A DNA stretch of 64,000 nucleotides from an uncultured Candidatus Saccharibacteria bacterium. GTDB lineage: Bacteria > Patescibacteriota > Minisyncoccia > Phycocordibacterales > VMEP01. The number at the start of each line of letters is the position of its first letter. Position 1 is the stretch's first letter. The notes below the pieces were generated by a model that was not told the origin of the DNA, did no database searches, and saw only the letters and a program-made list of their open reading frames with translations. Below are positions 20,349 through 55,477 of this stretch, one piece after another. The stretch lies in contig CAZOFV010000001.1 in the NCBI GenBank assembly GCA_964579635.1, positions 5,622-69,621 on the forward strand, given 5' to 3'. The translations under genes and the position numbers were made by a program.

Positions 20349-21698
20349 TTAAAACAAAGCCTTAATTTGTTCTAATTCTTGAAGTAAAGAATTATCTGTT
20401 TTAATCTCTTTTTTAATTTTTTCACAAGAATGAATAACAGTTGTATGGTCTCGGCCACCCATTTTTTGTCCGATAGACGGATAAGAAATATCAAATTCTT
20501 CTCTTAATATATACATAGCAACCTGTCTTGGTTTAACAACATCTTTTCTTCTTGTTTTTTCATAAACACTACCTTCTTCAATGTTATAAAAATCAGCTAT
20601 TATTTTAACAACATCTTTTACCGCCATATTTTTCTTTGGTTTTATGTTGTTTTTTAATAGATTTTTTATTTCATATAAAGAAAGATCTTTGTTTTTTAGT
20701 TTTGTATGACAAATAACCAAGTTTAAAGCACCCTCAAGTTCCCTTATGTTTCCTTGAATAAGAGAAGCAATATATTGCATAACTTCGTCAGGTGGGTAGA
20801 AATTATTTTCCTTTGCTTTAGCTGACAAAATAGAAAGTCTCGATTCATATTCTGGTTGACCAACATCAACAGTCATTCCTGCTCCAAAACGTGATTTTAA
20901 GCGTTCTTCTAGGTTTGGAATAAAGTTTGGGTGCACGTCGGAAGAAAAAATAATTTGTTTATTGTTGTCGTAGAAAGCATTAAAAAGATGAAATAATTCT
21001 TCTTGGGTTTTATCTTTGTTTGATAGGAACTGAACATCATCAACAATAAGAACGTCGTATTTTCGATACTTCTCTTTAAATGCTGGAATTTTATTTGCTT
21101 GCATTGATGTAACAAAATCAACTGAAAATTTTTCAGATGTTGTATAGAAAACTTTACGGTTATTATGTTTTGTTTTTAGTGTGTTCCCTACCGATTGGAT
21201 AAGGTGTGTTTTTCCTAAACCAGTACGACCATAAATAAAAAGAGGGTTATAAGCTGTTCCAGGTTTTTCTAAAACTGCTTGGGCTGCGCTGTAGGCGAGT
21301 TCATTAAACGAACCAATAACAAATGAATCAAAAGTATAGCGTGGGTTTAGATTGTCTTCTTTGTTTATATACAAATCTGCAAGTGGAAGTTCACGGAGAA
21401 GTGGTGATTTTGAAAAATCAGCACTAATTGTTTTTGGTTTTTCGCCAATATTTTTTACAACAATATACTCAACTCCTCTAACGTACTCAGAAAGATCACG
21501 CATTTTTTGCAAAATAAATTTGTGATATTTATTAAAAATCCAATCCTTAACAAATTCATTTGGAACTCCAACGAAAATAATACCCCCCTCTTCTTTTACA
21601 ATGTCTGTGTTTTTAAACCAAGTACTAAAATTTGCTTTTGAAACATGAAGCTCTACTTCAAGAAGTGTGTTTGTCCAAAGGTTTTTTAGGTCGAGCAT
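20349..21698 (-). CDS. dnaA: Chromosomal replication initiator DnaA
   Basis: AAA+ Walker A GRTGLGKTHL, sensor motifs, and a C-terminal DNA-binding HTH (SIGQKMGGRDHTTVIH). Start moved to the internal MLDLKNLW. Confidence 0.95.
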   Translation of the reverse strand: MLDLKNLWTNTLLEVELHVSKANFSTWFKNTDIVKEEGGIIFVGVPNEFVKDWIFNKYHKFILQKMRDLSEYVRGVEYIVVKNIGEKPKTISADFSKSPLLRELPLADLYINKEDNLNPRYTFDSFVIGSFNELAYSAAQAVLEKPGTAYNPLFIYGRTGLGKTHLIQSVGNTLKTKHNNRKVFYTTSEKFSVDFVTSMQANKIPAFKEKYRKYDVLIVDDVQFLSNKDKTQEELFHLFNAFYDNNKQIIFSSDVHPNFIPNLEERLKSRFGAGMTVDVGQPEYESRLSILSAKAKENNFYPPDEVMQYIASLIQGNIRELEGALNLVICHTKLKNKDLSLYEIKNLLKNNIKPKKNMAVKDVVKIIADFYNIEEGSVYEKTRRKDVVKPRQVAMYILREEFDISYPSIGQKMGGRDHTTVIHSCEKIKKEIKTDNSLLQELEQIKALF

Positions 21699-21853
21699 AA
21701 AAGAGATGTTTGTTTGAGGTATTATAATGTGTAAAACCAAAAATGGAACGTGACAAAAAAACACTTTTATGTTAATAAGGTGTTAACAAGTTGGTGATTC
21801 TAAAAACTAGAACACATTTGTTTTGTCTTTAGTGGTAATCTATAATCAATCTT

Positions 21854-23879: not shown

Positions 23880-25121
23880 CTAGAGAGACAAAAGCCAGAG
23901 CGAGTTGTCGGTTTTATTTAAGAAAACTAATTTGTTACCCGTTTTGTTTATTTGTAGAGAAATTGCATCTATTTGTTCCCTTGAAGTTTCCCTTAAGTTT
24001 ATGATTTGGTCGGTAGCTCCAGATTCAGTGTCTATTTTCCAGATAATATCAGAGAAACTAATTAATCCTTGATACCAAGAGTCTGGATAACCATCGGCGG
24101 TTCTTGGTGTTGATTCTGGTATGGCGCAATAAGCATCGATATTATTTTGATACCAAACACATTTTTCAGAAAGTGTTGCTAGTCCAAATGAGTATGAATT
24201 CTTTGTTTTTCGTAAAAAGAGAGATAAAGATAAACCGTTTTCCGCATTTTCCGAGAAAATTACTTTATTGCCATCTGGTGAAACTAACGTAGTTAGCCCA
24301 TATTTTTTACCAATAAGTTTTACTAAGGAAGGATTCTTTGTGGTAATAAAATAATCAAAACCAAAAATAGAAGCAGATGGTTTTGTGTTTAATGAAATTA
24401 AATCATCCTGTGCCCATTGAGGAAGCCATTCCGTGAAAGAAGATTGAAACACTTGAGATTTTTTTGAGCCGTCAAACAAAGAGATTGTTCCAATAGACGA
24501 GTTGTCGTATTTAGATAGTGTAAATATTTTTAATTTGTCCGGCGAAACAGCTATTTGTTCAATATTTTCATCAAGAAAATTTCCAATAATAGCCCCCTCA
24601 TCTGTACTCGTTGCTTTCAATGTAATTTTTCCAGAATATGTTTTGATTGTTTCTGTGTCTTCGTCTAAATACCTAAATAAAACTTGCTCTCCTTTGTCGG
24701 AAAAAATAGCCTCATGTATTTTGGGAATAGTCGTATTGCTTACTCTTTTTTTCTCTAAGCTATCAGTATTTACATCATGAATATGGCCAGTTCCTTTTTC
24801 CGCATAGCGAACAATCGTTGAACTGCCTTTTTCAAAGACGATAAATCCAGCTGTTGGGGTATCGGTTAGCTTTAAGAGTTTAGCTTTTTTTTGTTGCTCA
24901 CTGTTTTGACTAGATGTTGTTTTGGTTGAACCACTATCTCCTTCCTCATTTGAGCCATTACCGCTCGTTGATTTTGGGTCAAAAATACCAAAAGGTGAAA
25001 AGTTGTCGATGTTTTCTATATTTGATAACCCTGTTTTTTGGGTTAAGAAAAACCAACCCGCTAAAGCAAAGGCTACTAGGACTAAAGAGAGAATTATTGC
25101 GAGTGTTGTTTTTGTAGACAT
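23880..25121 (-). CDS. Bitopic membrane-anchored protein with a probable beta-propeller ectodomain; hypothetical, first gene of the T4SS-like block by position
   Basis: N-terminal TM segment, Ser-rich linker, and TolB/WD-like segments (VSPDGNKVIF). Confidence 0.45.
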   Translation of the reverse strand: MSTKTTLAIILSLVLVAFALAGWFFLTQKTGLSNIENIDNFSPFGIFDPKSTSGNGSNEEGDSGSTKTTSSQNSEQQKKAKLLKLTDTPTAGFIVFEKGSSTIVRYAEKGTGHIHDVNTDSLEKKRVSNTTIPKIHEAIFSDKGEQVLFRYLDEDTETIKTYSGKITLKATSTDEGAIIGNFLDENIEQIAVSPDKLKIFTLSKYDNSSIGTISLFDGSKKSQVFQSSFTEWLPQWAQDDLISLNTKPSASIFGFDYFITTKNPSLVKLIGKKYGLTTLVSPDGNKVIFSENAENGLSLSLFLRKTKNSYSFGLATLSEKCVWYQNNIDAYCAIPESTPRTADGYPDSWYQGLISFSDIIWKIDTESGATDQIINLRETSREQIDAISLQINKTGNKLVFLNKTDNSLWLLSL

Positions 25122-25126
25122 TTTAT

Positions 25127-25996
25127 TTAATATTCTACATGAAAATGAGCAGCACTTATTTCAGGTACAGCTCGTACACAAGTTACACCACCGTTTGCAA
25201 GGGAGTCTTTTTCTGCGGCTGTTTTTACTTCATAAAAAGGTTTTAACCCGACTTTTCTTGCTGCCACACAGAGTGCGTTTATGTTTTCTGTGGATTTGTT
25301 CACCCCAGCAATTAAATTCATATCCACACAACCACCATCGTTATGACATGAACTTTTGTGTGGATATGTTGGTGGATATGCCTCGGTAATTTGCCAAGCA
25401 ATACTACTTACGGAAGGTGAGTTTTTTAACATGATGAGGTTTTCAATAATTTTTTTGTTTGCTCTACATGTTTTTGAGCCACATGCACCGGCTTTTGTTT
25501 TTAGTTCCGGCGGAATAAAAGTACAATCAATACAGGCTTTTTCTGGAATTACTCCAGTAGAACTACGGCTCGGACTAGTACTTGTTGTGGCACTAGTCGT
25601 AGTAATAGATACTACTTTTGTTTGGGGAATCTCTAACTTAAGGCTGACAATATCTGGGTTGATTGTGTATAGAAAAACATAAACCCCAAGAGCTAAAATT
25701 AGCCCTAATATAGCTCCTTCGATTTTTGATTTAGCATCACCTAGTTTAAACGGTGATTCACTAGCCATATATTGAATTCCACCAATAACAATTTGAATAA
25801 CAGCGAGTCCTGCGGCTACTCCGATACCAATTTTAAAAACAAGATTGAGATATTCAGAAAAAGATTTACTTCCAGTTGTGTTGTAGGTGTTGTTGTAGAC
25901 ACTAGGTTCAAGCAGTGTGTATTCTTTTTGGGCAGAAACAAAAACAGGCAATACTGTAAACAGAAAAACTAGTGTAGTTAAAAAAATTTTTTTCAT
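25127..25996 (-). CDS. VirB2/TrbC-like pilin N-terminal module fused to a Ser/Thr linker and a C-terminal 8-Cys domain, possibly a LAS/M15-like zinc hydrolase
   Basis: Signal peptide plus two hydrophobic helices in the pilin-like hairpin. The C-terminus carries SCHNDGGCVD (an S.H..G.A.D-like motif) and AAHFHVEY. Confidence 0.5.
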   Translation of the reverse strand: MKKIFLTTLVFLFTVLPVFVSAQKEYTLLEPSVYNNTYNTTGSKSFSEYLNLVFKIGIGVAAGLAVIQIVIGGIQYMASESPFKLGDAKSKIEGAILGLILALGVYVFLYTINPDIVSLKLEIPQTKVVSITTTSATTSTSPSRSSTGVIPEKACIDCTFIPPELKTKAGACGSKTCRANKKIIENLIMLKNSPSVSSIAWQITEAYPPTYPHKSSCHNDGGCVDMNLIAGVNKSTENINALCVAARKVGLKPFYEVKTAAEKDSLANGGVTCVRAVPEISAAHFHVEY

Positions 25997-25997
25997 A

Positions 25998-26999
25998 TCA
26001 CCTTCCTTTAAAGTTTAACACAATGTTGTTAATCGCAGAGAGTAACACCTTTGATGAATTCGTAACCTCAAGAGATATGTCTGCTTCCCCAGATATTCCA
26101 GGTTGTTGTCTGACAACTAAAACACTAGGGTGGTTATAGTTTGTATCTATAAGGTTATTATTTAATGACCATTTATATTTTAATTGAGAGCTATTTTTGT
26201 TTATTGGAGAAATAAAATATGGCTCTGCCACCAAGGAAAGCTCTTCGTTTGGAAGGTTTGCTGTATTAAAAAGCGATTTGTTATACATAACTCCCAATAG
26301 GGGGTTTTTTTCATAGAATAAAATTTTTGGGTCGACAATAATAATTCGTATCTCCCCTTTTCCTGTTTTAATCCCAGATTTATTTCTGGTTTCTACGCCA
26401 ATTGTTTCCTCTCTTTTGAGATAATTGTTCTTAAAAGAAAGAGTTGAAACACCATTTCCCGAAAGAGATCCTAATATTTCGTAATTACGACTCCATTTAT
26501 AAGATAGATCGCTTGGTTTATACGGACTTCCATTGCTTCTAAAAACATTTGGGATAACGGTTATTTTTATTAGCGACTCCGGTGTTGGAAGACCCTTTCC
26601 TTTGTAAAAACGAGGGGTGTAAACATCAATTGCCTCCCAAAGAACATCAACTTCTGAAGGATTTACTGTTGCCGTTGCTCTTAAAAAAGTATTTCCAAGA
26701 GAGGCTGTGGCATTTATTGTTGTAATATCGCCAACGTCCCCTGTTTTAAAGGAAATAGATTTTTGTCCGATACTTGATGAAACTTTTGTCCCGTTTACAG
26801 ACCAAGAGATGCTTGCGATATCTAAGTTAATGGAAGGACTAGAGATTGACGCCGTGGCTTCTTTATAAGCTCCAGGTATTTCTGGTGAGACCTGAATAAA
26901 AAGAACGTCATTTGACTGAGCTTTGGCAACAATAAAAAACAAAAAAATAGAGATAAATATTGTTGTTTTTATGAAGTTGAGAGAATGGAATTTTTTCAC
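25998..26999 (-). CDS. Secreted hypothetical protein (T4SS-like cluster)
   Basis: Signal peptide; beta-rich composition. Confidence 0.5.
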   Translation of the reverse strand: MKKFHSLNFIKTTIFISIFLFFIVAKAQSNDVLFIQVSPEIPGAYKEATASISSPSINLDIASISWSVNGTKVSSSIGQKSISFKTGDVGDITTINATASLGNTFLRATATVNPSEVDVLWEAIDVYTPRFYKGKGLPTPESLIKITVIPNVFRSNGSPYKPSDLSYKWSRNYEILGSLSGNGVSTLSFKNNYLKREETIGVETRNKSGIKTGKGEIRIIIVDPKILFYEKNPLLGVMYNKSLFNTANLPNEELSLVAEPYFISPINKNSSQLKYKWSLNNNLIDTNYNHPSVLVVRQQPGISGEADISLEVTNSSKVLLSAINNIVLNFKGR

Positions 27000-27059
27000 A
27001 AAAAACGCATTAAAGCTTGTTTGTTATTATAGCTAAAAAATACAAGCTAACCAAACAAA

Positions 27060-28889
27060 TTAAGCAGATGTTTGCTCTTCTGCTGTTCCAAGCTCTGCTT
27101 TTGCTTTCTTGATAGCAAGAACTTGCGATGGGTCGGAGGTAATTATTTGGTCTTCTGTATAGGAAGCGACAATCTTCAAAGCTACGTGTTTTAAACCAGC
27201 GAAAAAGATACCTTCCCCAACCCCTGACTCAAGGAGAAGATATTTTTCCTCATCTGTTAAGTTGAATGTTTTTTGAACCACATCAATAGATGACGGGGAT
27301 TGTTTTAAGAGGAGCTGGATAGAAGAGTTGGTGATAATAGGAAGACCATATGGAGATTTAAGGAAGTCGCCCACGTCTTGGGTGATAGTTGCGAGTCCTA
27401 GGTAATATTTACGTCCACGTTTTGCGATGCTAAACAAGAAAGATGCGGTGTCTTCTGATTTCATCATCCACCAAGCTTCATCAACAACAAGAAGACGTTT
27501 TTTGAGATTTTTACGAACAGCGTTCCAGATATAGTGGGTAACTATATACATCGCAACTGGTTTTAACTCATCTTCCATGTCACGAACAGAGAAAACAACA
27601 AATTTTTTATTGATATCTACGTTTGTTGGCTTATTTATAAAACCAGACCAAGTCCCTTTGGTATATTTAGATAATTTTTGAAGAAGTTCGCCACTACCAT
27701 CCATTCCAGCAAGCACCATTTCAAAGTCTGAAAGTAATGGTGGTTCTATGGCAGAAAAATCTGAATCAGCAGTAATATCTTTTAGAGCATATGTTTCGGT
27801 AATAGCTCTGTCGATAAGAGAATCTTCTCCTGGTGAAAGACCACCGAGCATGATACGAAACAATCCGACCAAATTTACGATATTTGAACGTAAAACATCT
27901 GCTGCTGATTCATCTTCTCTTGGAATAGGAAGATCAAATGGATTTATGTGGTTGTCTGATGTTAGTGAGATATTGAAATAACGCCCACCCGTTGCTTCAG
28001 CCAAGTATTCATACTCTCTTTCAGGGTCTATCACGATGACTTCTGTATCAAACATGAGTGTGCGTATAATCTCTAATTTTGTCGTGTAGGATTTTCCAGA
28101 ACCTGATTTAGCAAAAATAATTGAGTTGTAGTTTTCAAGTGAATAGCGGTCAAAAAGAACGAGACTAGAGTTGTGGCGATTTATTCCGTACAGAATTCCA
28201 CGGTCAGAAGTAAGGTCAAATGAAACGAACGGGAAAAGAGAAGAAAGAGGAGAAGAGTTTAGTTTGGAATGAACGCCTAATTCATCTGAGGCAATAGGAA
28301 TAACGCTTTTAAACCCTTGTTCTTGTTGGAAAAGAGCCGGTTTAACATAAACAAGCTTTGATTCAAGAATAGATTTTATTTCAGTTTCAGTTTTATCAAG
28401 TTCTGCTTCGGTAGCGCCATAGATAGTGAGATAAAGACCAACATCAAATATTTTTTCTTGAGCTTGCTGTAAAGAATCTCGAAGATTCTCCAAATCTTGA
28501 TACGCTGTATCAAGCATTGGGTCGCGAACCATACCCTTCTCTTCTCTCATGTGTATTTGGCTTTGGACTTCAGCTACTTTTTTTTGGAACGTATGAAGAA
28601 TTTTAGCTGTTTCGATTGGATGAATGAAGATTGAAACATCAAAAACTTTATCCAAATTTATTATTGGAGAAAACCAGTTATCAGCGAGTACTCTAGGGTA
28701 TGAAATAACAAAAAAAGTACGAGCTATTTTATCTCCAAGGTTTAATGCTCGAGGTTCTATTTTTAAAGCAGACGGAGCAATAATATCGCGTAACTCAAGT
28801 GTTGCCGCTTGATATATTTCCTGAGGAAGAATTGGCGTAATTTCTTCTTCTTTTTTATCTTCTCCAGTTATGAAATCAAATATTCCCAT
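27060..28889 (-). CDS. VirB4/TrbE-like conjugal-transfer-type ATPase (C-terminal ATPase portion)
   Basis: Walker A AKSGSGKSYTT and Walker B LLVVDEAWWMM. Confidence 0.8.
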   Translation of the reverse strand: MGIFDFITGEDKKEEEITPILPQEIYQAATLELRDIIAPSALKIEPRALNLGDKIARTFFVISYPRVLADNWFSPIINLDKVFDVSIFIHPIETAKILHTFQKKVAEVQSQIHMREEKGMVRDPMLDTAYQDLENLRDSLQQAQEKIFDVGLYLTIYGATEAELDKTETEIKSILESKLVYVKPALFQQEQGFKSVIPIASDELGVHSKLNSSPLSSLFPFVSFDLTSDRGILYGINRHNSSLVLFDRYSLENYNSIIFAKSGSGKSYTTKLEIIRTLMFDTEVIVIDPEREYEYLAEATGGRYFNISLTSDNHINPFDLPIPREDESAADVLRSNIVNLVGLFRIMLGGLSPGEDSLIDRAITETYALKDITADSDFSAIEPPLLSDFEMVLAGMDGSGELLQKLSKYTKGTWSGFINKPTNVDINKKFVVFSVRDMEDELKPVAMYIVTHYIWNAVRKNLKKRLLVVDEAWWMMKSEDTASFLFSIAKRGRKYYLGLATITQDVGDFLKSPYGLPIITNSSIQLLLKQSPSSIDVVQKTFNLTDEEKYLLLESGVGEGIFFAGLKHVALKIVASYTEDQIITSDPSQVLAIKKAKAELGTAEEQTSA

Positions 28890-28893
28890 GTTT

Positions 28894-29556
28894 TTATTGG
28901 TTAAGTTTTATGGCTTTTTCCGTTTCTCCTGGATTAAATATTTTATAAAAAACCTCAATAACCTCTTCTGTTCCAAGTTGAACAGCTCTGACTCCAAAAC
29001 GCGATAAACCCTGAGCAACAACAGAGACGCGCTGGTCAAGCTGAGAACGACTTTCTTCAAAAAGCTCCGTTTCTGCAATTCTTGATTCTGCGGTCGGTTC
29101 TTTTTTACTCGATATTCCGGGAATGTTTGGCACAGAAAAACCACCACTACCCTTTCCCCCGAGAGATGGGGCTGTATATGGGACAACAATAAAGAAATTT
29201 TTAGTCATAATATTCCTTGTTTCAGCTAGGTTTTTTATGAAATCAATATATTCTCTTGTTTGTATTTTAAGAAGATCTTCTAATTGTTCTCTCATTCTGT
29301 CTTCAAGCATTGTGATATATGGCTTGATGTCTAGTTTTCGCGACTGAATAAATATTTGAATTGAAAAATCTAATGAGTTTAAAAATCCTTGGAATTGAAG
29401 AATTGTAGCTGTTTGTTCCTCTTCTGATTTTAAGGAAAGGTTTAAAGAAGACGTCATAACAAGCGCTCTTAAAGAGCCATCTTTTAAAATAACGACTCCA
29501 TCGCGTACTTCTTTGATGGGAACAAAATCTTGAGCTGCTTTTGATTGAATTGCCAT
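28894..29556 (-). CDS. VirB4 N-terminal-domain-like protein, separated from the ATPase ORF by a stop and 4 nt
   Basis: DFVPIKEVRDGVVILKDGSLRALV matches the VirB4 N-terminal region. Sits directly upstream of the ATPase ORF. Confidence 0.5.
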   Translation of the reverse strand: MAIQSKAAQDFVPIKEVRDGVVILKDGSLRALVMTSSLNLSLKSEEEQTATILQFQGFLNSLDFSIQIFIQSRKLDIKPYITMLEDRMREQLEDLLKIQTREYIDFIKNLAETRNIMTKNFFIVVPYTAPSLGGKGSGGFSVPNIPGISSKKEPTAESRIAETELFEESRSQLDQRVSVVAQGLSRFGVRAVQLGTEEVIEVFYKIFNPGETEKAIKLNQ

Positions 29557-29634
29557 TGTTTACTTTGAATCAGTATAGCAAATAGAGGATAAAATGTGTG
29601 TTTATAGTGTTTATTTTTTAATAAAAGACATCGT

Positions 29635-30075
29635 TTAGCTCTCTTTGTTTGAGTTTAAAACATCAAGTCCCCAAGAAAGATCTTTTAGTTTACTGTCAGA
29701 TAGTTTTGGTACTAAAGAATTCTCTTCTGTTTTTCCAACAACTCTTTTTGTAACCTCCATTGGTCGGTTTACTTTTTTCCAAATATATAATTTTTCTCCG
29801 AAATAATAACGAAACGCGGCTTCGACGCTGTAAATAAATGGTTTATCGTTTATTTTGTAAAAAGCAAAAGCAAAAGCTAAGGCTAGAATTGGTATTACAA
29901 AAAACAAAGTTATCATTAAAGGCAAGAAAGAGTCTAGTATTTTATACACGACAAAGGCCATACCAGAACCACCGGCTAGATAGATAAATTGTTTAAAGGT
30001 GAAAGGGCCAAAAATTTTGTCTTCTACCTCTATAAATTGAGGAACGTGAAATTGCATAATTCCATTATAACGCAT
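29635..30075 (-). CDS. PrgI/VirB3-like small membrane protein
   Basis: QFHVPQFIEVEDKIFGPFTFKQFIYLAGG followed by two TM helices; a PrgI-family pattern. Confidence 0.5.
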   Translation of the reverse strand: MRYNGIMQFHVPQFIEVEDKIFGPFTFKQFIYLAGGSGMAFVVYKILDSFLPLMITLFFVIPILALAFAFAFYKINDKPFIYSVEAAFRYYFGEKLYIWKKVNRPMEVTKRVVGKTEENSLVPKLSDSKLKDLSWGLDVLNSNKES

Positions 30076-30103
30076 TAGAGGAACCGCGCGAGAGGAGAAA
30101 GAA

Positions 30104-30838
30104 TTAAATAGGTTCTCTGTATGGGTCTAATTCATGAACACTGTCTTTTTTTGGTAAAGAAAAGTCGTTTGTTAGTTTTTCTTTAACTATATTTATAGAA
30201 GGAGTTGTTTTGACTTCTTCTTTGGTCTCAATATTTTTACTTTCAATAGTTAATGGGGTGTTTGGTTTACTGATTTCTAGCAACTCTGCTTTAGGTGGTA
30301 AGGCCCTTTCTGTGGCTTTTGTTGGATTTTCGATATCATTTAGAACGGACTCTCTGTTTAGGTTTTCGTTCACTACAGCCGTGGTTTCATTGTCGACAAT
30401 TTCAATACCACTTTCTTTTAGAATTGTTTTATCAATAGGCTCCAGAGTTATTTGTACACCGCTTTCTTGTTGTAGGGAGCCCTCAGGAAGGTCGCTATGT
30501 TTTATTTCAACCAATTCTTCTGTATTGTGAATTTTCTTTAACGATTCGCGAATTGACTCAAAAATTTGTTCGTTTATATCATGAACAATTAACTCTGCTA
30601 CATCTTTTGTTATGTTAAGTTTTGATTGGATAATTTGAGAAAAATCATTAGGTTTTGTAAGGCCAAACATAACTAAGTTTGTTTCATCTACTAAAATTGA
30701 AAGTTTGTCTATGTGAAGAGAATATTTTGCTCCAATATTTCTTATTTTTGATCCTGTGTTAAACCCAAAAAGAACGCCCTTAACATCCTCAGGAAGAGAT
30801 TCAAGCATTTGTTCTAGTTGTTGGTTGGTGTAGTCCAT
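30104..30838 (-). CDS. Acidic cytoplasmic hypothetical protein (T4SS-like cluster)
   Basis: Long ORF in an operon-like arrangement. Confidence 0.45.
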   Translation of the reverse strand: MDYTNQQLEQMLESLPEDVKGVLFGFNTGSKIRNIGAKYSLHIDKLSILVDETNLVMFGLTKPNDFSQIIQSKLNITKDVAELIVHDINEQIFESIRESLKKIHNTEELVEIKHSDLPEGSLQQESGVQITLEPIDKTILKESGIEIVDNETTAVVNENLNRESVLNDIENPTKATERALPPKAELLEISKPNTPLTIESKNIETKEEVKTTPSINIVKEKLTNDFSLPKKDSVHELDPYREPI

Positions 30839-30862
30839 AGGAAGATTTACTTTGTTTTAATT

Positions 30863-33061
30863 TTACTTCTTGCTTTCCCTGTCTTTTATTAAATCGAGTT
30901 TGTTTACGTAATTCTGGAGTGTTCGTGCGTTTGTTTTTGCCATCTCTTTCTCAAGGATTAATTTTGCACGAGCGTCTTTGTCTGCACCTTTACCAAGATC
31001 TTCAAGTGTCACACTTATAGTAGCGGCTTGTTTTGTAAAATTATCAATAGCATCTTTTACTGAGCCGTGGCTACCCATTAATTCTTTTATTGTTTCTTCT
31101 AATCCTGCAATCTCTCTGTCCGCTTTATATTTCTGGTCTATTTCTTTTTCTGCTTTTTTAGTTCCACCAGCACTTCCTATCTTAAGACCTTGTGGCGCGA
31201 TTTCACCACCCCAGCCTTTATTTTTTAATTGACTAAAATATTCTTTTTGTCTTTCTTGAGTTGTGGTTCTTTGTTTGTCCGCCTCAGCTGTCTTAAGTTT
31301 TTCCGTTCTTAGTTTATTAATTTCCTCAGAACTTTTTCCTGCTTTTTCCGCAGCCGTTAAATCGATACTATTTACTTCCTGTGTGCTTAATTTTACTTTT
31401 TTCGCTTCAAGAAGTTTTGCCATCTCAACTCTGTCTTTTCCTAGCGTTTCCTCTCCTCGTTTAAGATCTCCTCTGAATCCATCCTTTAGGTTTTCTGGTT
31501 TTTTACCTAGGTCTAATTTGATACCAGCGGCTCCGGCTAGTTTTGATGCCATACCACCAACAAGCGGTGTTTCACCTGCTGCGCGAACGTCAAAACTTGA
31601 TTTGGCGACTCCTTCGGTTGTTTGTAATGCGAGACGACCAACTTTGCTACTTGATGCCCAGCCTATAAAATTCTCACTACCAGCAAGAGCAGCTGCTCCA
31701 CGCCCAATTATTCTTCTTCCCGCTAAGCCACCAACTCCGCCTACCACTGCCCCTGCTACTGTCATTAACCCACTAGTTATTGTCCCACTAATTCCGTCAC
31801 ATTTTGCCATTCTGTATGAAGCAATAAGAAAGACACACACCAAAAGGTAATTAAAAATAATTCCAGTGCTTTCAGTGATTGAGTTGCCGTAGCTACCCAA
31901 ACCAACAAGTGCGTCATTTATACCTTGACCAGGTTTAGCAACGCTAACAGAAGAAAGGATCTGTAAAGAAACCCAAATAAGCAGAAAATAAATTGGCGCA
32001 GACAGCGAGTTACAAATAAGTTCCTCCCACCATTTATCTGTAAATTTTTTTAGTCTTGGTAAAACAGTCCCCAAAAGCATGATTGGTGAAAAAGGAAGAA
32101 GGAAGATAAGAACAGCAGTTCTTACTATAAAAAGAAACGCCCCTTGTAAAAAAATCAAAAACATAATAAAGACCATTGCTGCAGTGGCCCATATTTGAAC
32201 AGTGAAACTCCAGGCTGTTCCACTCGATGCTTCAGAAGAAAACATTGTTTCCGCGTCAAACTTTTGCATAAATGCCCCGCTAATACCATCTGTTGTGCTG
32301 TCTTTTATTATTGAAGAATAAAACTGAACAGCGACAATGTTTGAGGTGTCTATGATTACTTTGGTGAAAAATAAACTGAAATTAACAAGCAACGCTGCAA
32401 TAATAAGTGTTGGTATGAATTTTTTTGCATCACCCATCTGCAGGATGTTCATTATTGAAACCCAGAGCAACATGAATATGAAAATAATATTTCCTAAGTC
32501 TCTGATGGTGCTCCAAGCTATGTTGATACCATTGTCAGCACTTCCAATAAGCGTCCCCATTTCAAGGATGCTGAATTTTGTTGAAAAATCAAAAACTTGC
32601 CCAGCTAGGCTAACTAGAAAAGCAAGAATGTTTAAAACAGCATAACCAAGACCTCTTGCGCTACAGGCAATTGGATTTTTAAAAAAATTATTAAACCCCG
32701 AACATGAAGCAGTCTCCCCGTTCTTTGCAGTATTTTTAGCTACCACGGTGTCATATAGGTTTGCGTTATATGCATAATTGGCGTCGTTTAGATCTGCAAT
32801 ACAGTTTAGGTACTCATTTGATCCTTTGTCTTTGATTGAACTACACTCAGATTCCGCCATTATAGAAGGTGCTTTTGGAACGACATCTCTTTGGTCGTTT
32901 GAATCTGCAATACAGTTTAAATATTCGTTCGAACCTTTGTTTTGAATTGTTTCACAGTTTTGTTGCGCTTGTGCGTTTGTGAAAAACAAAATAAATAAAA
33001 CAAGCACAAAAAAAAGTATTGCTGAAAAATTTATTAGTTTTTTAAAAGAAAAAGATATCAT
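30863..33061 (-). CDS. VirB6/TrbL-like polytopic membrane protein with N-terminal tandem Cys-loop repeats and a long charged coiled-coil C-terminal tail
   Basis: Signal peptide. Two copies of the module C..I.NKGSNEYLNCIAD.ND. At least 6 TM segments. K/E-rich tail. Confidence 0.5.
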   Translation of the reverse strand: MISFSFKKLINFSAILFFVLVLFILFFTNAQAQQNCETIQNKGSNEYLNCIADSNDQRDVVPKAPSIMAESECSSIKDKGSNEYLNCIADLNDANYAYNANLYDTVVAKNTAKNGETASCSGFNNFFKNPIACSARGLGYAVLNILAFLVSLAGQVFDFSTKFSILEMGTLIGSADNGINIAWSTIRDLGNIIFIFMLLWVSIMNILQMGDAKKFIPTLIIAALLVNFSLFFTKVIIDTSNIVAVQFYSSIIKDSTTDGISGAFMQKFDAETMFSSEASSGTAWSFTVQIWATAAMVFIMFLIFLQGAFLFIVRTAVLIFLLPFSPIMLLGTVLPRLKKFTDKWWEELICNSLSAPIYFLLIWVSLQILSSVSVAKPGQGINDALVGLGSYGNSITESTGIIFNYLLVCVFLIASYRMAKCDGISGTITSGLMTVAGAVVGGVGGLAGRRIIGRGAAALAGSENFIGWASSSKVGRLALQTTEGVAKSSFDVRAAGETPLVGGMASKLAGAAGIKLDLGKKPENLKDGFRGDLKRGEETLGKDRVEMAKLLEAKKVKLSTQEVNSIDLTAAEKAGKSSEEINKLRTEKLKTAEADKQRTTTQERQKEYFSQLKNKGWGGEIAPQGLKIGSAGGTKKAEKEIDQKYKADREIAGLEETIKELMGSHGSVKDAIDNFTKQAATISVTLEDLGKGADKDARAKLILEKEMAKTNARTLQNYVNKLDLIKDRESKK

Positions 33062-33065
33062 GCTT

Positions 33066-35255
33066 TTAGTATGTTGTCGGCATATTTTGTTTCTTCCTTT
33101 CTTCTTCCGCTAAAATCTCTTTATGCTCAGCTTCGCAAGCAACAATCATTGCGCTTGTTGTGTCACGAATTGTTCTTGCTTGAGATAATTGAGAAGAAGC
33201 GTTTGTTACCACAGTAGAACTTGGAATTTTGCCTGAAGTGGAGATATTTATTAATTCTCCTGCGGCAGTTTTATAATCAAGACCTCCTAAAGCAACAGCA
33301 TCTTTAAGTGCATATAATTCAACCATTGTTCTCGCTGCAGAATTTACTTCACCTTCTAGACTTGTTATTGCTTGGTTGTATAAAGCTACTCTGTCGAAAA
33401 GTGACGTTACCCCAGAGTTTGATTGGTTTGCTAGATTACTTGGACAATATGTTACCGGTCCTAGTTTTATCAAAGAATTGGTTAAATCAGCGGCTTCAGA
33501 GGTGACATCACGTAGCTCATCAATAATTGTGATATACCCAATTAATGAATTTGAAGTTTTTTCTATACTGCCAACAACATCGTTTGTAGAGTTATTTTCC
33601 TGGCTTGAAATTTCTTTTGCCGTTGAATTGTTGTCGGTAATTTCCCAGAAAGATGAGTTTGAGTCAGTAAGAAAGTTTTGAAGTGCAAGGTCAGCAGTAG
33701 AAATTGTTTCATTTGAATCTGCTCCAATATTTCCAGCATTTCTTTCTGGGGCTGTTGCTACAGAGCGTAGTTTTTCTTCGATTACTGATGCTGGAGTAAC
33801 AATCTTATATCTTCGGCACGCACCAGAAGATTCATCAATATCCACACATTCTTCTTGTGGTGGAACATCGTTAACTAGTTTTTCTTTTGCCTCCTCTTCT
33901 GCCCTATCTTGACCTTCTTGATAAAGTCTTTCTGTTGCAAGAATGTGTCCGAATTTATTATTCGACTCAATTTGAGTCAAAGCGTTCCAAGCTTTCCATC
34001 CACCAGCAGAGAAATCGCCTTTGCGATATTTTACGGCATTGGTTGAACCAATAATACTTGGAAGACTGTCGTTTAAAACACCTGTGTTGTTTGCGTTTTT
34101 TGTTTGTTCTTCATTTACTATATTTTTTATTGCTTCGTTTTTGTAAGGAGAGTTACTTTTTGATAAATCAGAAATAAAAAGTTTTGTTTGGTTTTCGGTT
34201 TGCTTGCTTATGTAATCAGTCATATTTGTTACATAAAGAGGATTACCGTTATTTCCAGTATTTAACCAATTTCTTATATTGTCTTCCATTTTTGCCCTTG
34301 TTATTAAAGAGCTGGTATAGGAAAGTCTATTTAAACAAGTTTCTTTTGTTTTAAGAATACTAGTGTCTTGTTGAAGGGTTGTTATTTGTTGAACAATTGT
34401 TTGAGGGTCTGTTGGAACTTGTCCACCACCACCTATTAAAGAAAGAATAGAACCAACTCCTGGAATGGCACTACTGCCACCAAACATAGAGCCTAGCTCT
34501 CCTGCTGTGTAGCCAGCAGACATTCCGCCAAGGGTGTTTCCAAGACTGACTAAACTACCAGAACCAATAGTTCCACCTAAATCTATAAGGGCGTTGGAAA
34601 CAGCGCTTGTTGCATCAGAAAGCAGATCACTTGATAAAGCGCTTGTTACTAACTTATCTGCTCCGCCGATAATAGCATTTGTTCCGGACTGAATTGCACC
34701 ACCAATACCACCGTTTGAACCATCTACTCCGTTTACTGTTTTGTTGATTTCTTGATTTATAGCATTTGTTGCCCCTGTTACTGCGGTATTGGCAGCCTTG
34801 TCTACAATAGAACCAACAGCTTTTCCAACACTATTCCCGATTTGACCACCACCTAGAGCATCACTTACAGCACCGGAGGCAGAGGAGCCAAGTCCGCTTA
34901 TACCCACACCGCTAATGAGTTGTTTTCCAAGCGAGGATAGTGTATTTCCTATTGCCCCGCCGAGTGCAGTACACCCAGAATTTCCTAATGTTTCAGCCAT
35001 TGATTCATTAGATGAGTTTAGACTTTTTCTTGTATCGAGAGTTTTTGTTTCCGAATCCCTGTTAGTTATGTCGGAGGGAAGAATACAAGAGCCAGGACTT
35101 GTTGGGTCGTCAACGAAACCGTCCGTACAGCCATCAGCTTCTTGAGCTCTAGCGTTGTTTGTATTTAAAAATGACGGCGAAATAATAATCAGAGAAATAA
35201 AAACCACTGAAATTATTTTTTTTACCATATTCCTTTTAGCAGAAAATAGAACCAT
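33066..35255 (-). CDS. Large secreted Gly/Ser/Ala-rich protein (candidate surface, VirB5/adhesin-like component)
   Basis: Signal peptide. GS-rich low-complexity N-terminal half and a globular C-terminal half. Confidence 0.45.
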   Translation of the reverse strand: MVLFSAKRNMVKKIISVVFISLIIISPSFLNTNNARAQEADGCTDGFVDDPTSPGSCILPSDITNRDSETKTLDTRKSLNSSNESMAETLGNSGCTALGGAIGNTLSSLGKQLISGVGISGLGSSASGAVSDALGGGQIGNSVGKAVGSIVDKAANTAVTGATNAINQEINKTVNGVDGSNGGIGGAIQSGTNAIIGGADKLVTSALSSDLLSDATSAVSNALIDLGGTIGSGSLVSLGNTLGGMSAGYTAGELGSMFGGSSAIPGVGSILSLIGGGGQVPTDPQTIVQQITTLQQDTSILKTKETCLNRLSYTSSLITRAKMEDNIRNWLNTGNNGNPLYVTNMTDYISKQTENQTKLFISDLSKSNSPYKNEAIKNIVNEEQTKNANNTGVLNDSLPSIIGSTNAVKYRKGDFSAGGWKAWNALTQIESNNKFGHILATERLYQEGQDRAEEEAKEKLVNDVPPQEECVDIDESSGACRRYKIVTPASVIEEKLRSVATAPERNAGNIGADSNETISTADLALQNFLTDSNSSFWEITDNNSTAKEISSQENNSTNDVVGSIEKTSNSLIGYITIIDELRDVTSEAADLTNSLIKLGPVTYCPSNLANQSNSGVTSLFDRVALYNQAITSLEGEVNSAARTMVELYALKDAVALGGLDYKTAAGELINISTSGKIPSSTVVTNASSQLSQARTIRDTTSAMIVACEAEHKEILAEEERKKQNMPTTY

Positions 35256-35260
35256 AGTTT

Positions 35261-36202
35261 TTACGGCTTTGTGCTGTTAAGTATAACACCACTTTTAAAA
35301 TATATCTCTAGTGTTTTGGCTGTTTCTATTATTTTATTGCTATAAAAAAGATATTGATTAATTCCACTCATCGAAAGAAGTGGATCGCTAAAAATTTTTC
35401 CAGCTATCTTCAAAGAATCAGCGGTTCCTCGGTAACTATTTATTAAATCTAGGTGTATTGTTGCGATTTTGTCTGGCACAGGGATTAATGCTGTTTCTTT
35501 GGCTATGTTTGTATAGGCTTCTATATAAGGAGTTAGTTTCATTGGCAATGTTTTATCTTCTGTTTCAAGTGCTTTTGAGATAATCGGAAGTTCTTGTCCG
35601 AGGTTGTATTTATCATATTTTTGAATTACTTCCCCCAATTTTTTACCATACAATAAAATCTCTGCGTCGTTAGCGTTTTTTATAATTGAAATGTCGTTTG
35701 TTGTGTATAAAGAGACAGGAGATTCTGTTTTTATGTTTGAATATATTGTTTCTGCTGCGTTTTTTATTGACTGTGAGCTAACTTCCCCAGAGTTTTTAAG
35801 AGCAGAAACGGCAACAAAGAATTGTTGGCCAAACTGATCCGTTACGCTTTCTGTTGTCTGGTTGTTAATATTTGCGTTGTTTTGCTTACGGACTTCCGCT
35901 GAATCAACTATACCGTTTCCGTTTGAATCAGCATTTTGTGGGTCTGTTCCATAGAGGGCTTCTTCCCAATCTTTTAATCCGTCGTTATCGCTATCCTTGT
36001 TTATTAAATCTGTTATAGAAGAAGAGTCTACTCCGCCATTAATCACTAAAACGCTCTGCTCTTCTTCTTTAGATCCGTTAATTATCGGTGCGTTATTTTG
36101 ATATTTTGAAAAAATTGAAAGAAGAATAATCCCTACACCCAAAATAGAGGCGCTAACTAGTCTTTTGTTTTGTAAGAAACTGCGCACCAATTGAGGATTC
36201 AT
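35261..36202 (-). CDS. Bitopic membrane protein with a TSP3-like Ca-binding Asp repeat (DSDNDGLKDWEE..GTDP.N.DSNGNG..D)
   Basis: N-terminal TM segment plus an aspartate-rich repeat. Confidence 0.5.
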   Translation of the reverse strand: MNPQLVRSFLQNKRLVSASILGVGIILLSIFSKYQNNAPIINGSKEEEQSVLVINGGVDSSSITDLINKDSDNDGLKDWEEALYGTDPQNADSNGNGIVDSAEVRKQNNANINNQTTESVTDQFGQQFFVAVSALKNSGEVSSQSIKNAAETIYSNIKTESPVSLYTTNDISIIKNANDAEILLYGKKLGEVIQKYDKYNLGQELPIISKALETEDKTLPMKLTPYIEAYTNIAKETALIPVPDKIATIHLDLINSYRGTADSLKIAGKIFSDPLLSMSGINQYLFYSNKIIETAKTLEIYFKSGVILNSTKP

Positions 36203-36340
36203 ATATTCTTTGATTATAGCAAGGAAATTATAGTTTTTTTATGAATTTATAGATTTGTGTGGATATGTTTTTGTTTTTCTCTAAGTTTTTTGTTTCGAAA
36301 GAAAAAAGACAATGGTCTTTGGTGTTGCTATAATGAATAA

Positions 36341-36679
36341 ATGAAAAAAGCAGTACTTTTTTTGTTTATAACTATATTAGTATTTTCTTCAATTCCTCTT
36401 ACCAAAGCTAATGCAGCTTCTGTTTTTGGTGGAAGAATCATGTCTATTGTTCCGTGCACTTGTTCTCCAGGGATGGCTGTGATTGTTGGGGCGCCTAGGC
36501 CAGCCGTTTTGTTGTTTGTTCCTGGAATTTCACGTTTATTCAGTAGAGGGCGCGTTTCCCCTGGGGTTTGGACGTTAGGAGACTATTCTTCTGGAGGGAC
36601 TTGCATGCAGATTGCTGGAAAGACATGTGCTCCGTACCCGCCTATTCAAGGGACAATTCTTAAGATGGGAACATCTTAG
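36341..36679 (+). CDS. Small secreted Cys-containing protein in a GC-elevated patch
   Basis: Signal peptide. An extended -10 TGcTATAAT lies 9 nt upstream, so the mRNA is likely leaderless. About 50% GC. Confidence 0.4.
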   Translation: MKKAVLFLFITILVFSSIPLTKANAASVFGGRIMSIVPCTCSPGMAVIVGAPRPAVLLFVPGISRLFSRGRVSPGVWTLGDYSSGGTCMQIAGKTCAPYPPIQGTILKMGTS

Positions 36680-48039: not shown

Positions 48040-48150
48040 ATTTGTATATTCGTGTAATTATATCATAAAAAAAATAAAGGTATCAGATTTTTCTTTCAAA
48101 AATAGATAACGTGCTTGGGTGACTGTCGTGGTAAAATATTTTACGACATC

Positions 48151-55472: not shown

Positions 55473-55477
55473 CAGTC

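What the first reader, a model, noticed from the sequence alone, without database searches (positions are those of the whole stretch)
23880..36202. Minimal type-IV-secretion-like cluster without coupling protein, VirB11 or relaxase
Eleven co-directional minus-strand genes encode a VirB2-like pilin, a VirB4 ATPase (split), a PrgI/VirB3-like protein, a VirB6-like polytopic protein, and several secreted or bitopic proteins. No VirD4, VirB11 or relaxase/oriT-like gene is present. This resembles the reduced T4SS-like systems of ultrasmall bacteria, proposed for DNA uptake or host interaction rather than conjugation. The accessory proteins (TSP3-repeat protein, GS-rich secreted protein, beta-propeller protein) are uncharacterised.
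Basis: partly seen in the sequence, partly recalled or inferred. Interest (0 to 1): 0.6.

Follow-up and report, generated by a model that had tools for sequence, protein, structure and literature searches.

The report
Chromosomal Patescibacteria type IV secretion operon
This is the relaxase-less type IV secretion gene cluster that ultrasmall Patescibacteria (here a Paceibacteria/Parcubacteria genome) carry beside their replication origin; it is real and strongly conserved but was already described in 2023-2025, and the fresh details are that its pilin-like protein is fused to a cell-wall peptidase domain and that an unannotated soluble protein with a fixed C-terminal tail is a constant member.

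Summary
Window 23880-36202 (minus strand) carries ten tightly packed genes, not eleven. They encode a CD1110-type VirB4 ATPase, its N-domain as a separate TrsD-like gene, PrgI/VirB3, an extended VirB6, a VirB2-like pilin, and five unannotated partners. No VirD4, VirB11, relaxase or MobC is found anywhere in the 64 kb.

The cluster is not a mobile element. It lies between ksgA/pcrA and jag-yidC-rnpA-dnaA-dnaN. The same gene order and context recur in dozens of Paceibacteria species. VirB4 is 77-85% identical among them, against 53-68% for DnaA.

This is the Patescibacteria T4SS already described by Wang 2023 and Quinonero-Coronel 2025, including the origin-proximal position and the two-gene VirB4. 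It is a new member of a known kind.

Three details were not in the papers I read:
- Gene g7 belongs to a very large unannotated family with a fixed C-terminal DPYRE tail.
- VirB4 is unusually conserved.

The most likely function is a VirD4-independent, wall-piercing pilus or channel used for host interaction. The cargo is unknown.

The parts
35261..36202 (-). g10: first gene of the operon. 313-aa protein with one N-terminal membrane segment, a bacterial TSP3 (calcium-binding) repeat and a helical domain. Function unknown.
   Evidence: PF18884 TSP3_bac scores 31 bits against a cutoff of 25. There is a single hydrophobic segment at residues 13-34. Found in 33 related loci at about 26% identity.
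33066..35255 (-). g9: 729-aa secreted protein. It has a Gly/Ser-rich N-terminal half, a conserved Cys-containing core (about residues 300-510, motif GDFSxGGWxxW...NNPxGA) and a helical C-terminal part. Function unknown.
   Evidence: Signal-like segment at residues 9-33. Only the core is conserved across 27 orthologs. No family hit for the protein itself; one ortholog hits DUF4141 at 1.3e-5.
30863..33061 (-). g8: extended VirB6-like polytopic membrane protein. It has a signal segment, a Cys-rich duplicated motif, about 6 transmembrane helices and a roughly 250-aa Lys/Glu-rich helical tail.
   Evidence: AF2 model: pLDDT about 90 over residues 120-420. The top 7 Foldseek PDB hits are TrwI/VirB6 of R388, probability 0.94-1.0, E 0.012-0.14. 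4 of 35 orthologs hit PF04610 TrbL. Homologs carry PF04610/PF19590 TrbL_3. hhalign to pCF10 PrgH gives E 0.0011.
30104..30838 (-). g7: soluble 244-aa protein. It has a conserved N-domain of about 105 aa, a variable acidic linker and an invariant extreme C-terminal D-P-Y-R-E-(P)-I. It is a constant, unannotated member of the operon.
   Evidence: No hydrophobic segment. The tail is invariant in 29 of 29 orthologs. The family is present in 65 of 66 loci that have enough upstream DNA, always between VirB6 and PrgI. 8,225 cluster representatives at E<=1e-3, and 150 of 166 inspected end in a DPYRE-like tail. No Pfam, NCBIfam or PDB match.
29635..30075 (-). g6: PrgI/VirB3-like small membrane protein. 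The true start is probably Met7 at 30057.
   Evidence: PF12666 scores 41.8 bits against a gathering score of 27. Hydrophobic hairpin at residues 39-76. Orthologs align from query residue 7. Found in 78 of 80 loci at about 50% identity.
28894..29556 (-). g5: TrsD-like protein, which is the N-terminal domain of VirB4 encoded as a separate gene.
   Evidence: NF041427 TrsD 34.9 bits; VirB4 profiles match at their N-termini. Aligns to residues 21-193 of a 783-aa clostridial VirB4. Precomputed Pfam family TraC-like PF26593. Found in 79 of 80 loci at about 58% identity, stopping 4 nt before virB4.
27060..28889 (-). g4: VirB4 ATPase (central and C-terminal P-loop part), MPF_FATA / CD1110 type, with intact Walker A (GSGKS) and Walker B (VVDE).
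   Evidence: NF045971 scores 374 bits against a cutoff of 325; PF19044 gives 1e-25. 33% identity to residues 205-754 of C. perfringens VirB4. 77-85% identity to 80 Paceibacteria loci. The nearest plasmid VirB4 is at most 35% identical.
25998..26999 (-). g3: 333-aa secreted protein made of three repeats of about 105 aa, each with a Y-x-W-x-x-N motif (W66, W169, W277). Probably Ig-like. Function unknown.
   Evidence: Signal-like segment at residues 5-28. Invariant periodic Trp residues in 30 orthologs. Only weak PKD_3 (E 0.03) and Ig (E 0.36) hints. Found in 77 of 80 loci directly after virB4.
25127..25996 (-). g2: signal peptide, then a VirB2/TrbC-like two-helix pilin module (about residues 43-117), a Thr/Ser linker, and a C-terminal Hedgehog/DD-peptidase (LAS, M15-like) zinc-peptidase domain (residues 150-289; H213, H218, D225, E256, H282/H284).
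23880..25121 (-). g1: last gene of the operon. 413-aa membrane-anchored protein with a low-complexity linker and a beta-rich domain containing conserved Cys and Trp residues. Possibly a beta-propeller.
   Evidence: Hydrophobic segment at residues 1-29. Found in 62 loci at about 35% identity. Only weak TolB (E 0.27) and PD40/DPPIV_N/WD40 (E 0.009-0.03) hints.
36213..36232 (-). Two perfect TATAAT hexamers (36232-36227 and 36218-36213) just upstream of the g10 start codon. Candidate operon promoter; not tested.
   Evidence: Read directly from the sequence. The generic promoter scan of the region was not enriched over shuffled sequence.

Best explanation
Shown: this is the vertically inherited, chromosomal type IV secretion operon typical of Patescibacteria, in a Paceibacteria (Parcubacteria) genome. 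It sits next to the replication origin.

Its composition is:
- a cytoplasmic motor, VirB4, with its N-domain as the separate TrsD-like protein;
- a soluble partner, g7;
- a membrane platform of PrgI/VirB3 and an extended VirB6;
- a VirB2-like pilin module;
- four Sec-exported or membrane-anchored surface proteins (g1, g3, g9, g10).

It lacks the parts that make a T4SS conjugative: relaxase, MobC and a coupling protein.

Inferred: VirB2, VirB3, VirB4 and VirB6 are exactly the subset that builds the pilus or stalk in characterised systems and does not need VirD4. I therefore think the machine extracts Sec-inserted g2 from the membrane and assembles an envelope-crossing filament or channel. The zinc peptidase domain fused to g2 cuts peptidoglycan cross-links, either in the cell's own wall (a VirB1-like role) or in the host's wall. 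The fast-evolving surface proteins mediate contact with the host cell.

What passes through the structure, and in which direction, is not known. My confidence in the identity is about 0.9. My confidence in the pilus or wall-piercing mechanism is about 0.45.
For: Components.

No VirD4, relaxase or VirB11 in 64 kb.

Core-genome context: pcrA-ksgA on one side and jag-yidC-rnpA-dnaA-dnaN on the other, with the same GC content as the rest of the window.

Conservation:
- The order of all ten genes and of both flanks is the same in different species.
- At least 545 related loci exist in species-representative genomes.
- VirB4 median identity is 80%, against 59% for DnaA. VirB4 is higher in 48 of 48 loci. 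Surface proteins are 26-35% identical.

Topology: g4, g5 and g7 have no hydrophobic segment. All the other proteins have a signal segment or transmembrane helices.

Pilin-enzyme fusions: 57 of 70 pilin ORFs in related loci carry a C-terminal extension of at least 80 aa. The recognised ones are wall-active enzymes.

Colinearity: the order VirB6, PrgI, VirB4, wall hydrolase matches the clostridial and pCF10 conjugation modules.

Literature: the system is described, shown to be essential in Southlakia epibionticum, and noted to lie near dnaA (PMC10633639, PMC12102498, PMC12857230).
Against: - The Pfam pilin hit of g2 itself is below the gathering score.
- The VirB6 fold matches have modest statistics (E about 0.01; TM-score 0.35-0.47).
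- No VirB8-like protein or adhesin was recognised.
- The only pilin in the window carries a 140-aa domain on every subunit. This may be incompatible with a filament unless the protein is processed.
- No pilus has been seen in Paceibacteria, and essentiality is shown only for a Saccharimonadia species.
- A VirD4-like gene may lie outside the window. The 2025 paper finds such genes in most genomes, far from virB4.
- Peptidase activity of g2 is inferred from fold and conserved ligands only.
Confidence: 0.6

Rival explanations
1. Import machine. The apparatus pulls DNA, nucleotides or other macromolecules from the host into the Patescibacteria cell. This would work like the Helicobacter ComB system or the archaeal Ced system, which also lack VirD4, VirB11 and a relaxase.
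For: The same parts are missing. The best structural match of the pilin hairpin is a pilin from Aeropyrum pernix, from the archaeal conjugation/Ced-type pilus structures. VirB4 gives a weak hit to CedB. Import is the hypothesis favoured in PMC12102498. These organisms cannot make nucleotides (PMC10633639).
Against: The CedB score is 34.9 bits against a cutoff of 700. In S. epibionticum, comEC is needed for transformation but is dispensable for growth, while the T4SS is essential. DNA uptake through ComEC is therefore not the essential role. No DNA-binding or nuclease component is recognisable in the operon. A wall-cutting enzyme on the pilin is equally compatible with export.
Confidence: 0.2
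2. Translocator of cytoplasmic substrates. The machine exports effector proteins (or DNA) from the cytoplasm into the host, using a coupling protein encoded elsewhere. Alternatively, g7 acts as adaptor or substrate and its invariant C-terminal DPYRE tail is the recognition signal.
For: g7 is a constant, soluble operon member with a fixed C-terminal peptide on a disordered linker, as expected for a docking or secretion signal. VirD4-like genes occur away from virB4 in most Patescibacteria genomes. Wang 2023 suggest protein export.
Against: No coupling protein is present in 64 kb here, or within 10 kb of virB4 in the related loci inspected. The distal T4CP of S. epibionticum is not essential. 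There is no evidence that g7 leaves the cell, and its tail resembles no known T4SS signal.
Confidence: 0.12
3. Decaying or incomplete integrated conjugative element. The cluster would be the remnant of an ICE from a monoderm donor that has lost its relaxase and coupling protein and no longer works.
For: VirB4 is of the CD1110 type found on Firmicutes plasmids and ICEs, and the core gene order is colinear with them. A tyrosine recombinase lies 12 kb away at 48115-49074.
Against: - The cluster has the same position between housekeeping genes and the same ten-gene order in many species.
- VirB4 is more conserved than DnaA.
- Walker motifs are intact.
- All ten ORFs are intact, with gaps of 1-78 nt.
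- GC content equals that of the genome.
- The nearest mobile-element VirB4 is at most 35% identical.
- The recombinase is not adjacent, and it has the domain pair of XerC/D-type recombinases.
Confidence: 0.03

Closest known systems
Patescibacteria-clade T4SS (Southlakia epibionticum SEML1_0006-0019, Wang et al. 2023; survey of 3,035 genomes, Quinonero-Coronel et al. 2025)
   Same: A VirB4 related to MPF_FATA; a separate TrsD gene; PrgI/VirB3; VirB6; a VirB2-like PF18895 pilin. No relaxase and no coupling protein nearby. Chromosomal, and next to dnaA/dnaN/rnpA/ksgA in Paceibacteria.
   Different: Saccharimonadia carry arrays of short, divergent pilins and separate peptidase and lysozyme genes after virB4. 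Here there is a single pilin gene, fused to a LAS peptidase domain. The papers I read do not mention such fusions, the g7/DPYRE family, or the other four accessory proteins.
Conjugative MPF_FATA systems of Firmicutes (CD1110/CD1115 type, e.g. C. perfringens pSXP-169_2; E. faecalis pCF10 PrgH-PrgI-PrgJ-PrgK-PrgL/PcfC)
   Same: Homologous VirB4 (33% identity), PrgI and a VirB6-like protein. The core order is also the same: VirB6, PrgI, VirB4, then a wall hydrolase.
   Different: Those systems have a single-chain VirB4, a VirD4-type coupling protein, MobC plus a relaxase, a VirB8-like PrgL, LPXTG adhesins and no pilin, and they sit on mobile elements. None of these features is found here.
DNA-uptake T4SS-like systems: Helicobacter pylori ComB and the archaeal Ced system
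   Same: They use VirB4 with VirB2-, VirB3- and VirB6-like parts, and have no VirD4, VirB11 or relaxase (my knowledge of these systems). The pilin hairpin of g2 best matches an Aeropyrum pernix conjugation-type pilin.
   Different: ComB has the diderm VirB7-10 core. The CedB model scores far below its cutoff (34.9 against 700 bits). Neither system has pilin-enzyme fusions.
Bordetella Ptl and Brucella VirB (T4SSs that work without a coupling protein)
   Same: They are precedents for a T4SS that acts on Sec-exported material without VirD4 (PMC12102498 and PMC12857230).
   Different: They are diderm systems with a full VirB1-11 set, including VirB11, and they are phylogenetically unrelated MPF_T systems.
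LAS / Hedgehog-DD-peptidase zinc peptidases (VanY, VanX, LdcB, MepA, ShhN)
   Different: It is not recognised by any Pfam M15 model. It is fused to a T4SS pilin module. There is a longer spacer between the conserved Glu and the last His pair.

Membership tests
Patescibacteria-clade T4SS | VirB4 ATPase of the monoderm (MPF_FATA, CD1110-like) type | tested here: met
   NF045971 scores 374 bits against a cutoff of 325. 33% identity over 557 aligned residues to clostridial VirB4.
Patescibacteria-clade T4SS | VirB4 falls inside the monophyletic Patescibacteria clade | tested here: inconclusive
   No tree was built. Identity is 77-85% to 80 Paceibacteria/Parcubacteria MAG loci and at most 35% to any plasmid VirB4, which is consistent with membership.
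Patescibacteria-clade T4SS | Separate TrsD-like gene next to virB4 | tested here: met
   g5 ends 4 nt before g4. It matches TrsD and the VirB4 N-terminus. Present in 79 of 80 loci.
Patescibacteria-clade T4SS | PrgI/VirB3 and VirB6 homologues near virB4 | tested here: met
   PrgI is above the Pfam gathering score. VirB6 is supported by fold and by TrbL/TrbL_3 hits in orthologs.
Patescibacteria-clade T4SS | VirB2-like pilin (PF18895) near virB4 | tested here: met
Patescibacteria-clade T4SS | No relaxase and no coupling protein in the neighbourhood; chromosomal, near dnaA | tested here: met
   Pfam scans of the whole window. dnaA lies 2.1 kb from g1.
Patescibacteria-clade T4SS | Required for epibiotic growth | not testable with these tools
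   Shown only for S. epibionticum by Tn-seq.
Conjugative T4SS (plasmid or ICE) | Relaxase (MOB) with an oriT | tested here: not met
   No relaxase or MobC domain in any ORF of the 64 kb. No tblastn hit with the clostridial relaxase or MobC (this was a weak test). oriT was not searched for.
Conjugative T4SS (plasmid or ICE) | VirD4/TcpA-type coupling protein | tested here: not met
   Absent from the window. The rest of the genome could not be read.
Conjugative T4SS (plasmid or ICE) | Located on a mobile element (integrase, attachment repeats, patchy distribution) | tested here: not met
   The site is fixed between ksgA and jag/yidC in many species, and GC content matches the genome. Flanking repeats were not searched for explicitly.
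Archaeal Ced DNA importer | CedB-type ATPase | tested here: not met
   NF041017 scores 34.9 bits against a cutoff of 700.
LAS / M15 (Hedgehog-DD-peptidase) zinc peptidases, for the g2 C-domain | Characteristic fold | tested here: met
LAS / M15 (Hedgehog-DD-peptidase) zinc peptidases, for the g2 C-domain | His-Asp-His zinc ligands and catalytic Glu | tested here: met
   H218 and D225 align with the Shh 'SLH...AVD' ligands. D225, E256 and H284 are invariant in 6 homologs, and H218 is present in 5 of 6. The geometry in the model could not be inspected.
LAS / M15 (Hedgehog-DD-peptidase) zinc peptidases, for the g2 C-domain | Peptidoglycan peptidase activity | not testable with these tools
   Needs an enzyme assay.
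VirB11 traffic ATPase | About 330-aa PF00437 ATPase in the cluster | tested here: not met
   The only PF00437 protein is 566 aa, has an MshEN N-domain (PilB type) and lies 11.7 kb away beside ruvB.

The most novel reading that the evidence does not exclude
In Paceibacteria the 'VirB2 pilin' may not be a plain filament subunit. It may be the conserved membrane or export module of a modular protein whose C-terminal domain is exchanged between close relatives. The exchanged domains include a LAS peptidase, VanY, YkuD, SLT, NlpC/P60, Amidase_5 and a second unassigned type. This is the logic of polymorphic effectors. On this reading the T4SS presents a swappable wall-cutting tool to its own wall or the host's wall. 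The ubiquitous soluble g7 protein, with its invariant DPYRE tail, would be a previously unrecognised core subunit or recognition adaptor that replaces the missing coupling protein.
Probability: 0.3. Interest if true: 0.55.

Novelty: new member of a known kind. Interest (0 to 1): 0.32.

Why it matters
The Patescibacteria T4SS is the first T4SS found to be essential for the bacterium that carries it. What it transports is an open question for about a quarter of bacterial diversity.

This locus adds no new kind of system. It is a clean, complete Paceibacteria example that gives three testable handles:
- a pilin that carries its own peptidoglycan peptidase, which would explain why VirB1 homologues seem to be missing in most of these genomes;
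- a universal soluble partner with a fixed C-terminal peptide;
- a motor protein under stronger constraint than the replication initiator.

Tried and rejected
- **PDB sequence-profile searches.** Profiles for g1, g3, g7, g8, g9 and the second type of pilin C-domain gave nothing significant. Hits were only coiled-coil noise, TolB at E 0.27 and an Ig domain at E 0.36.
- **Pfam and NCBIfam scans of ortholog sets.** For g7, g9 and g1 these gave no family. The exceptions were one DUF4141 hit (1.3e-5) for a g9 ortholog and PD40/WD40 hints for g1. The DUF4141 lead could not be followed in the literature.
- **hhalign of all operon families against pCF10 PrgC-PrgM, PcfA and PcfB.** Only the expected weak pairs appeared: g8-PrgH at E 0.0011 and g6-PrgI at E 0.0018. 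g7 is not detectably PrgF or PrgG, and no protein matched the VirB8-like PrgL.
- **tblastn with clostridial VirD4, relaxase and MobC against the window and 80 loci.** No hits. The PrgI control also failed, so this test is insensitive.
- **hhalign between the two pilin C-domain types.** They are unrelated (probability 0.5%), so I do not call the second type a LAS peptidase.
- **Promoter and terminator scan.** Not enriched over shuffled sequence.
- **ICE-remnant hypothesis.** Rejected on synteny and conservation.
- **Suppressor tRNA.** ARAGORN called a 'tRNA-Stop(TTA)' at 1642-1717, but the Rfam alignment shows the loop CUUUUAA, so it is tRNA-Lys(UUU).
- **Literature search for the DPYRE motif.** Nothing relevant.
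- **Reading the rest of the source contig (128 kb).** Only a 9-kb Logan contig was retrievable.

Full report
**What is in the sequence.** Between 23880 and 36202 the minus strand carries ten ORFs separated by 1-78 nt. I found no further minus-strand ORF of at least 50 aa, and the gaps are too short to hold one. I number the genes g10 (first transcribed) to g1.

Two perfect TATAAT hexamers lie just upstream of the g10 start codon. A generic promoter and terminator scan was not enriched over shuffled sequence.

**The recognisable T4SS parts.**
- **g4 (609 aa) is a VirB4 ATPase of the monoderm CD1110 type.** NCBIfam NF045971 scores 374 bits against a cutoff of 325, and Pfam P-loop_TraG gives 1e-25. 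Walker A and Walker B are intact.
- **g5 (220 aa) is the VirB4 N-domain as a separate gene.** It matches TrsD/TraD and the N-terminal positions of VirB4 profiles. It aligns to residues 21-193 of a single-chain 783-aa Clostridium perfringens VirB4, while g4 aligns to residues 205-754 at 33% identity. The 'split' is therefore a real two-gene VirB4. It is present with the same 4-nt spacing in related genomes, so it is not a lesion.
- **g6 is PrgI/VirB3.** PF12666 scores 41.8 bits against a gathering score of 27. Its true start is probably Met7.
- **g8 (732 aa) is VirB6-like.** It has no Pfam hit itself. However, 4 of 35 positional orthologs hit TrbL/VirB6, and database homologs carry PF04610 or PF19590 TrbL_3. 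An AlphaFold model has pLDDT of about 90 across the membrane core. Its seven best PDB matches are all TrwI/VirB6 of plasmid R388, with probability 0.94-1.0 and E 0.012-0.14. With its long Lys/Glu-rich helical tail it fits the 'extended VirB6' class described in PMC12857230.

**The other five genes.**
- g10 is membrane-anchored and has a bacterial TSP3 repeat.
- g9 is a secreted Gly/Ser-rich protein. Only its core of about 200 aa is conserved.
- g3 is a secreted protein of three repeats of about 105 aa, each with a Y-x-W-x-x-N motif.
- g1 is membrane-anchored, with a beta-rich domain. A propeller fold is only weakly hinted at.
- g7 is soluble.

None of the five matches a curated family.

**What is absent.** Pfam scans of all ORFs of at least 150 aa (plus two shorter ones) in the 64 kb found no VirD4/TraG-type coupling protein, no relaxase or MobC, and no VirB11. 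The only PF00437 ATPase (10524-12224) is 566 aa with an MshEN domain. That is a PilB-type pilus ATPase, and it lies beside ruvB. The rest of the genome could not be examined.

**Context and conservation.** The operon lies between pcrA-ksgA on one side and jag-yidC-rnpA-dnaA-dnaN on the other. Its GC content matches its surroundings.

A scan of one genome per species found at least 545 loci encoding a relative of this VirB4. The best 80 are 77-85% identical and come from Paceibacterota/Parcubacteria MAGs, including Taylor-, Campbell-, Nomura- and Zambryskibacteria. The whole order pcrA, ksgA, g10...g1, jag, yidC, rnpA, dnaA, dnaN recurs in them.

Median identities are:

| Protein | Median identity |
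|---|---|
| VirB4 | 80% |
| TrsD | 58% |
| PrgI | 50% |
| DnaA | 59% |
| DnaN | 51% |
| Surface proteins | 26-35% |

VirB4 is more conserved than DnaA in 48 of 48 loci. The loci were chosen by VirB4 similarity, which inflates the VirB4 figure somewhat. The nearest VirB4 on any plasmid is at most 35% identical.

This is a core, vertically inherited locus under strong constraint. It is not an ICE remnant.

**Comparison with what is known.** The system is already published.
- Wang et al. 2023 (PMC10633639) found a T4SS cluster essential for epibiotic growth of Southlakia epibionticum. It resembles Gram-positive conjugation systems, but it has pilins and no recognisable coupling protein or relaxase.
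- Quinonero-Coronel et al. 2025 (PMC12102498) surveyed 3,035 genomes. They found a monophyletic Patescibacteria VirB4 clade within MPF_FATA, with TrsD the most common companion. PrgI, VirB6 and PF18895 pilins lie nearby, relaxases are almost absent, T4CP genes are rarely nearby, and in Paceibacteria the cluster sits beside dnaA, dnaN, rnpA and ksgA.
- A 2025 review lists these systems as a new branch of the superfamily.

Every defining feature I could test is met here. Placement in the clade was judged by identity only, not by a tree.

Compared with true conjugative relatives (C. perfringens pSXP-169_2 and pCF10), the core order VirB6, PrgI, VirB4, wall hydrolase is colinear. MobC, the relaxase, VirD4, the VirB8-like PrgL and the LPXTG adhesins are missing.

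**Details that go beyond the papers I read.**

*1. The pilin is fused to an enzyme.* In the g2 model, a signal peptide and a two-helix pilin module are followed by a disordered Thr/Ser linker and a confident C-terminal domain with pLDDT above 90.
- A sequence profile hits only Sonic hedgehog N-domains, at E 0.02. It aligns S-C-H218-N-D-G-G-C-V-D225 with the Shh zinc ligands.
- D225, E256 and H284 are invariant in homologs.

Close homologs whose pilin module is 79-89% identical carry a different, unassigned C-domain. More distant ones carry VanY, YkuD, SLT, NlpC/P60, M15_3, M15_4 or Amidase_5.

In the related loci, 57 of 70 pilin ORFs have a C-terminal extension of at least 80 aa. Sixty of 65 loci have a single pilin gene. 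g2 is the only pilin ORF in the window.

The 2025 paper reasons that VirB1 may be dispensable, because most genomes with VirB2 lack it. These fusions suggest the wall-cutting function is often built into the pilin protein.

*2. g7 is a constant member.*
- It occurs in 65 of 66 loci with enough upstream DNA, always between VirB6 and PrgI.
- It belongs to a very large unannotated family: 8,225 representatives at 50% clustering with E<=1e-3.
- The family's extreme C-terminus is D-P-Y-R-E in 150 of 166 members inspected.

I found no family, structure or paper for it.

**Mechanism.** The composition and context are shown; the rest is inferred. In characterised systems, VirB4 with VirB3 and VirB6 forms the inner-membrane platform that extracts VirB2 from the membrane and polymerises it. 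VirD4 is needed for substrate recruitment, not for pilus assembly (established knowledge of the R388, F and Ti systems; structures cited).

The set retained here is exactly that module, plus Sec-dependent surface proteins. I therefore favour a VirD4-independent assembly machine that builds a wall-crossing filament or channel. The g2 peptidase would open peptidoglycan, and the fast-evolving g1, g3, g9 and g10 proteins would contact the host.

C-terminal processing of the propilin has a precedent in RP4 TrbC (my knowledge). Such processing could release the pilin from the enzyme; this is not tested.

Some Paceibacteria have archaeal hosts without peptidoglycan (introduction of PMC12102498). This favours action on the cell's own wall, at least in those lineages.

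Import of host material and export of cytoplasmic effectors, possibly through g7, remain live alternatives. The data here cannot separate them.

**Verdict.** Interest is modest. It rests on the pilin-peptidase fusion, the g7 family and the unusual conservation of VirB4, all of which need experiments.

Noticed in passing
window 1642-1717 (+): ARAGORN calls this a 'tRNA-Stop' with anticodon TTA. The Rfam alignment gives a normal 7-nt loop CUUUUAA, so it is tRNA-Lys(UUU). The suppressor call is a register artefact caused by a mismatched first pair of the anticodon stem.
   Followed up: yes
window 54900-57300: An ORF-poor stretch of about 2.4 kb with GC 0.44 (the genome is about 0.36), directly 3' of tRNA-Gly(TCC) at 54830-54901. 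No Rfam match even at a permissive threshold. It may be a decayed insertion at the tRNA.
   Followed up: partly
window 8558-9580 (-): A 340-aa lipoprotein-like ORF in a GC-rich patch (0.48). It has C-terminal GRTLP(P/Q)SS repeats and no Pfam family. Long overlapping ORFs on the other strand reflect the unusual composition.
   Followed up: partly
window 36341-36679 (+): A small secreted Cys-rich protein (112 aa), transcribed divergently from the T4SS operon. It is present in only 6 of 80 related loci and has no family.
   Followed up: partly
window 10524-12224 (+): A PilB-type (T2SSE + MshEN) pilus ATPase standing alone next to ruvB, with no other type IV pilus genes recognised nearby.
   Followed up: no
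window 30104-30838 (-) and loci L084, L085: The g7 family has an invariant C-terminal DPYRE peptide. Many members contain 2-4 tandem copies of the N-domain. There are 8,225 representatives at 50% clustering, and none is annotated.
   Followed up: partly
window 27060-28889 (-) versus 20349-21764 (-): VirB4 is 77-85% identical among species whose DnaA is 53-68% identical. It is the most conserved protein of those compared in this region.
   Followed up: partly
P0004-P0014; loci L001, L009, L045, L046, L051, L068: A second C-terminal domain type on near-identical pilin modules (SGGTEWW.H.THG...PVVD...HWHV, with invariant His, Asp and Cys residues). It has no PDB or profile relation to the LAS-type domain, and its function is unknown.
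   Followed up: partly
NCBIfam hits of g2, g4 and g5: The pilin and VirB4 also match the Mycoplasma ICE models (Mbov_0395 pilin-like and Mbov_0397 VirB4). Pilin-like proteins are therefore not entirely absent from monoderm MPF_FATA systems.
   Followed up: no
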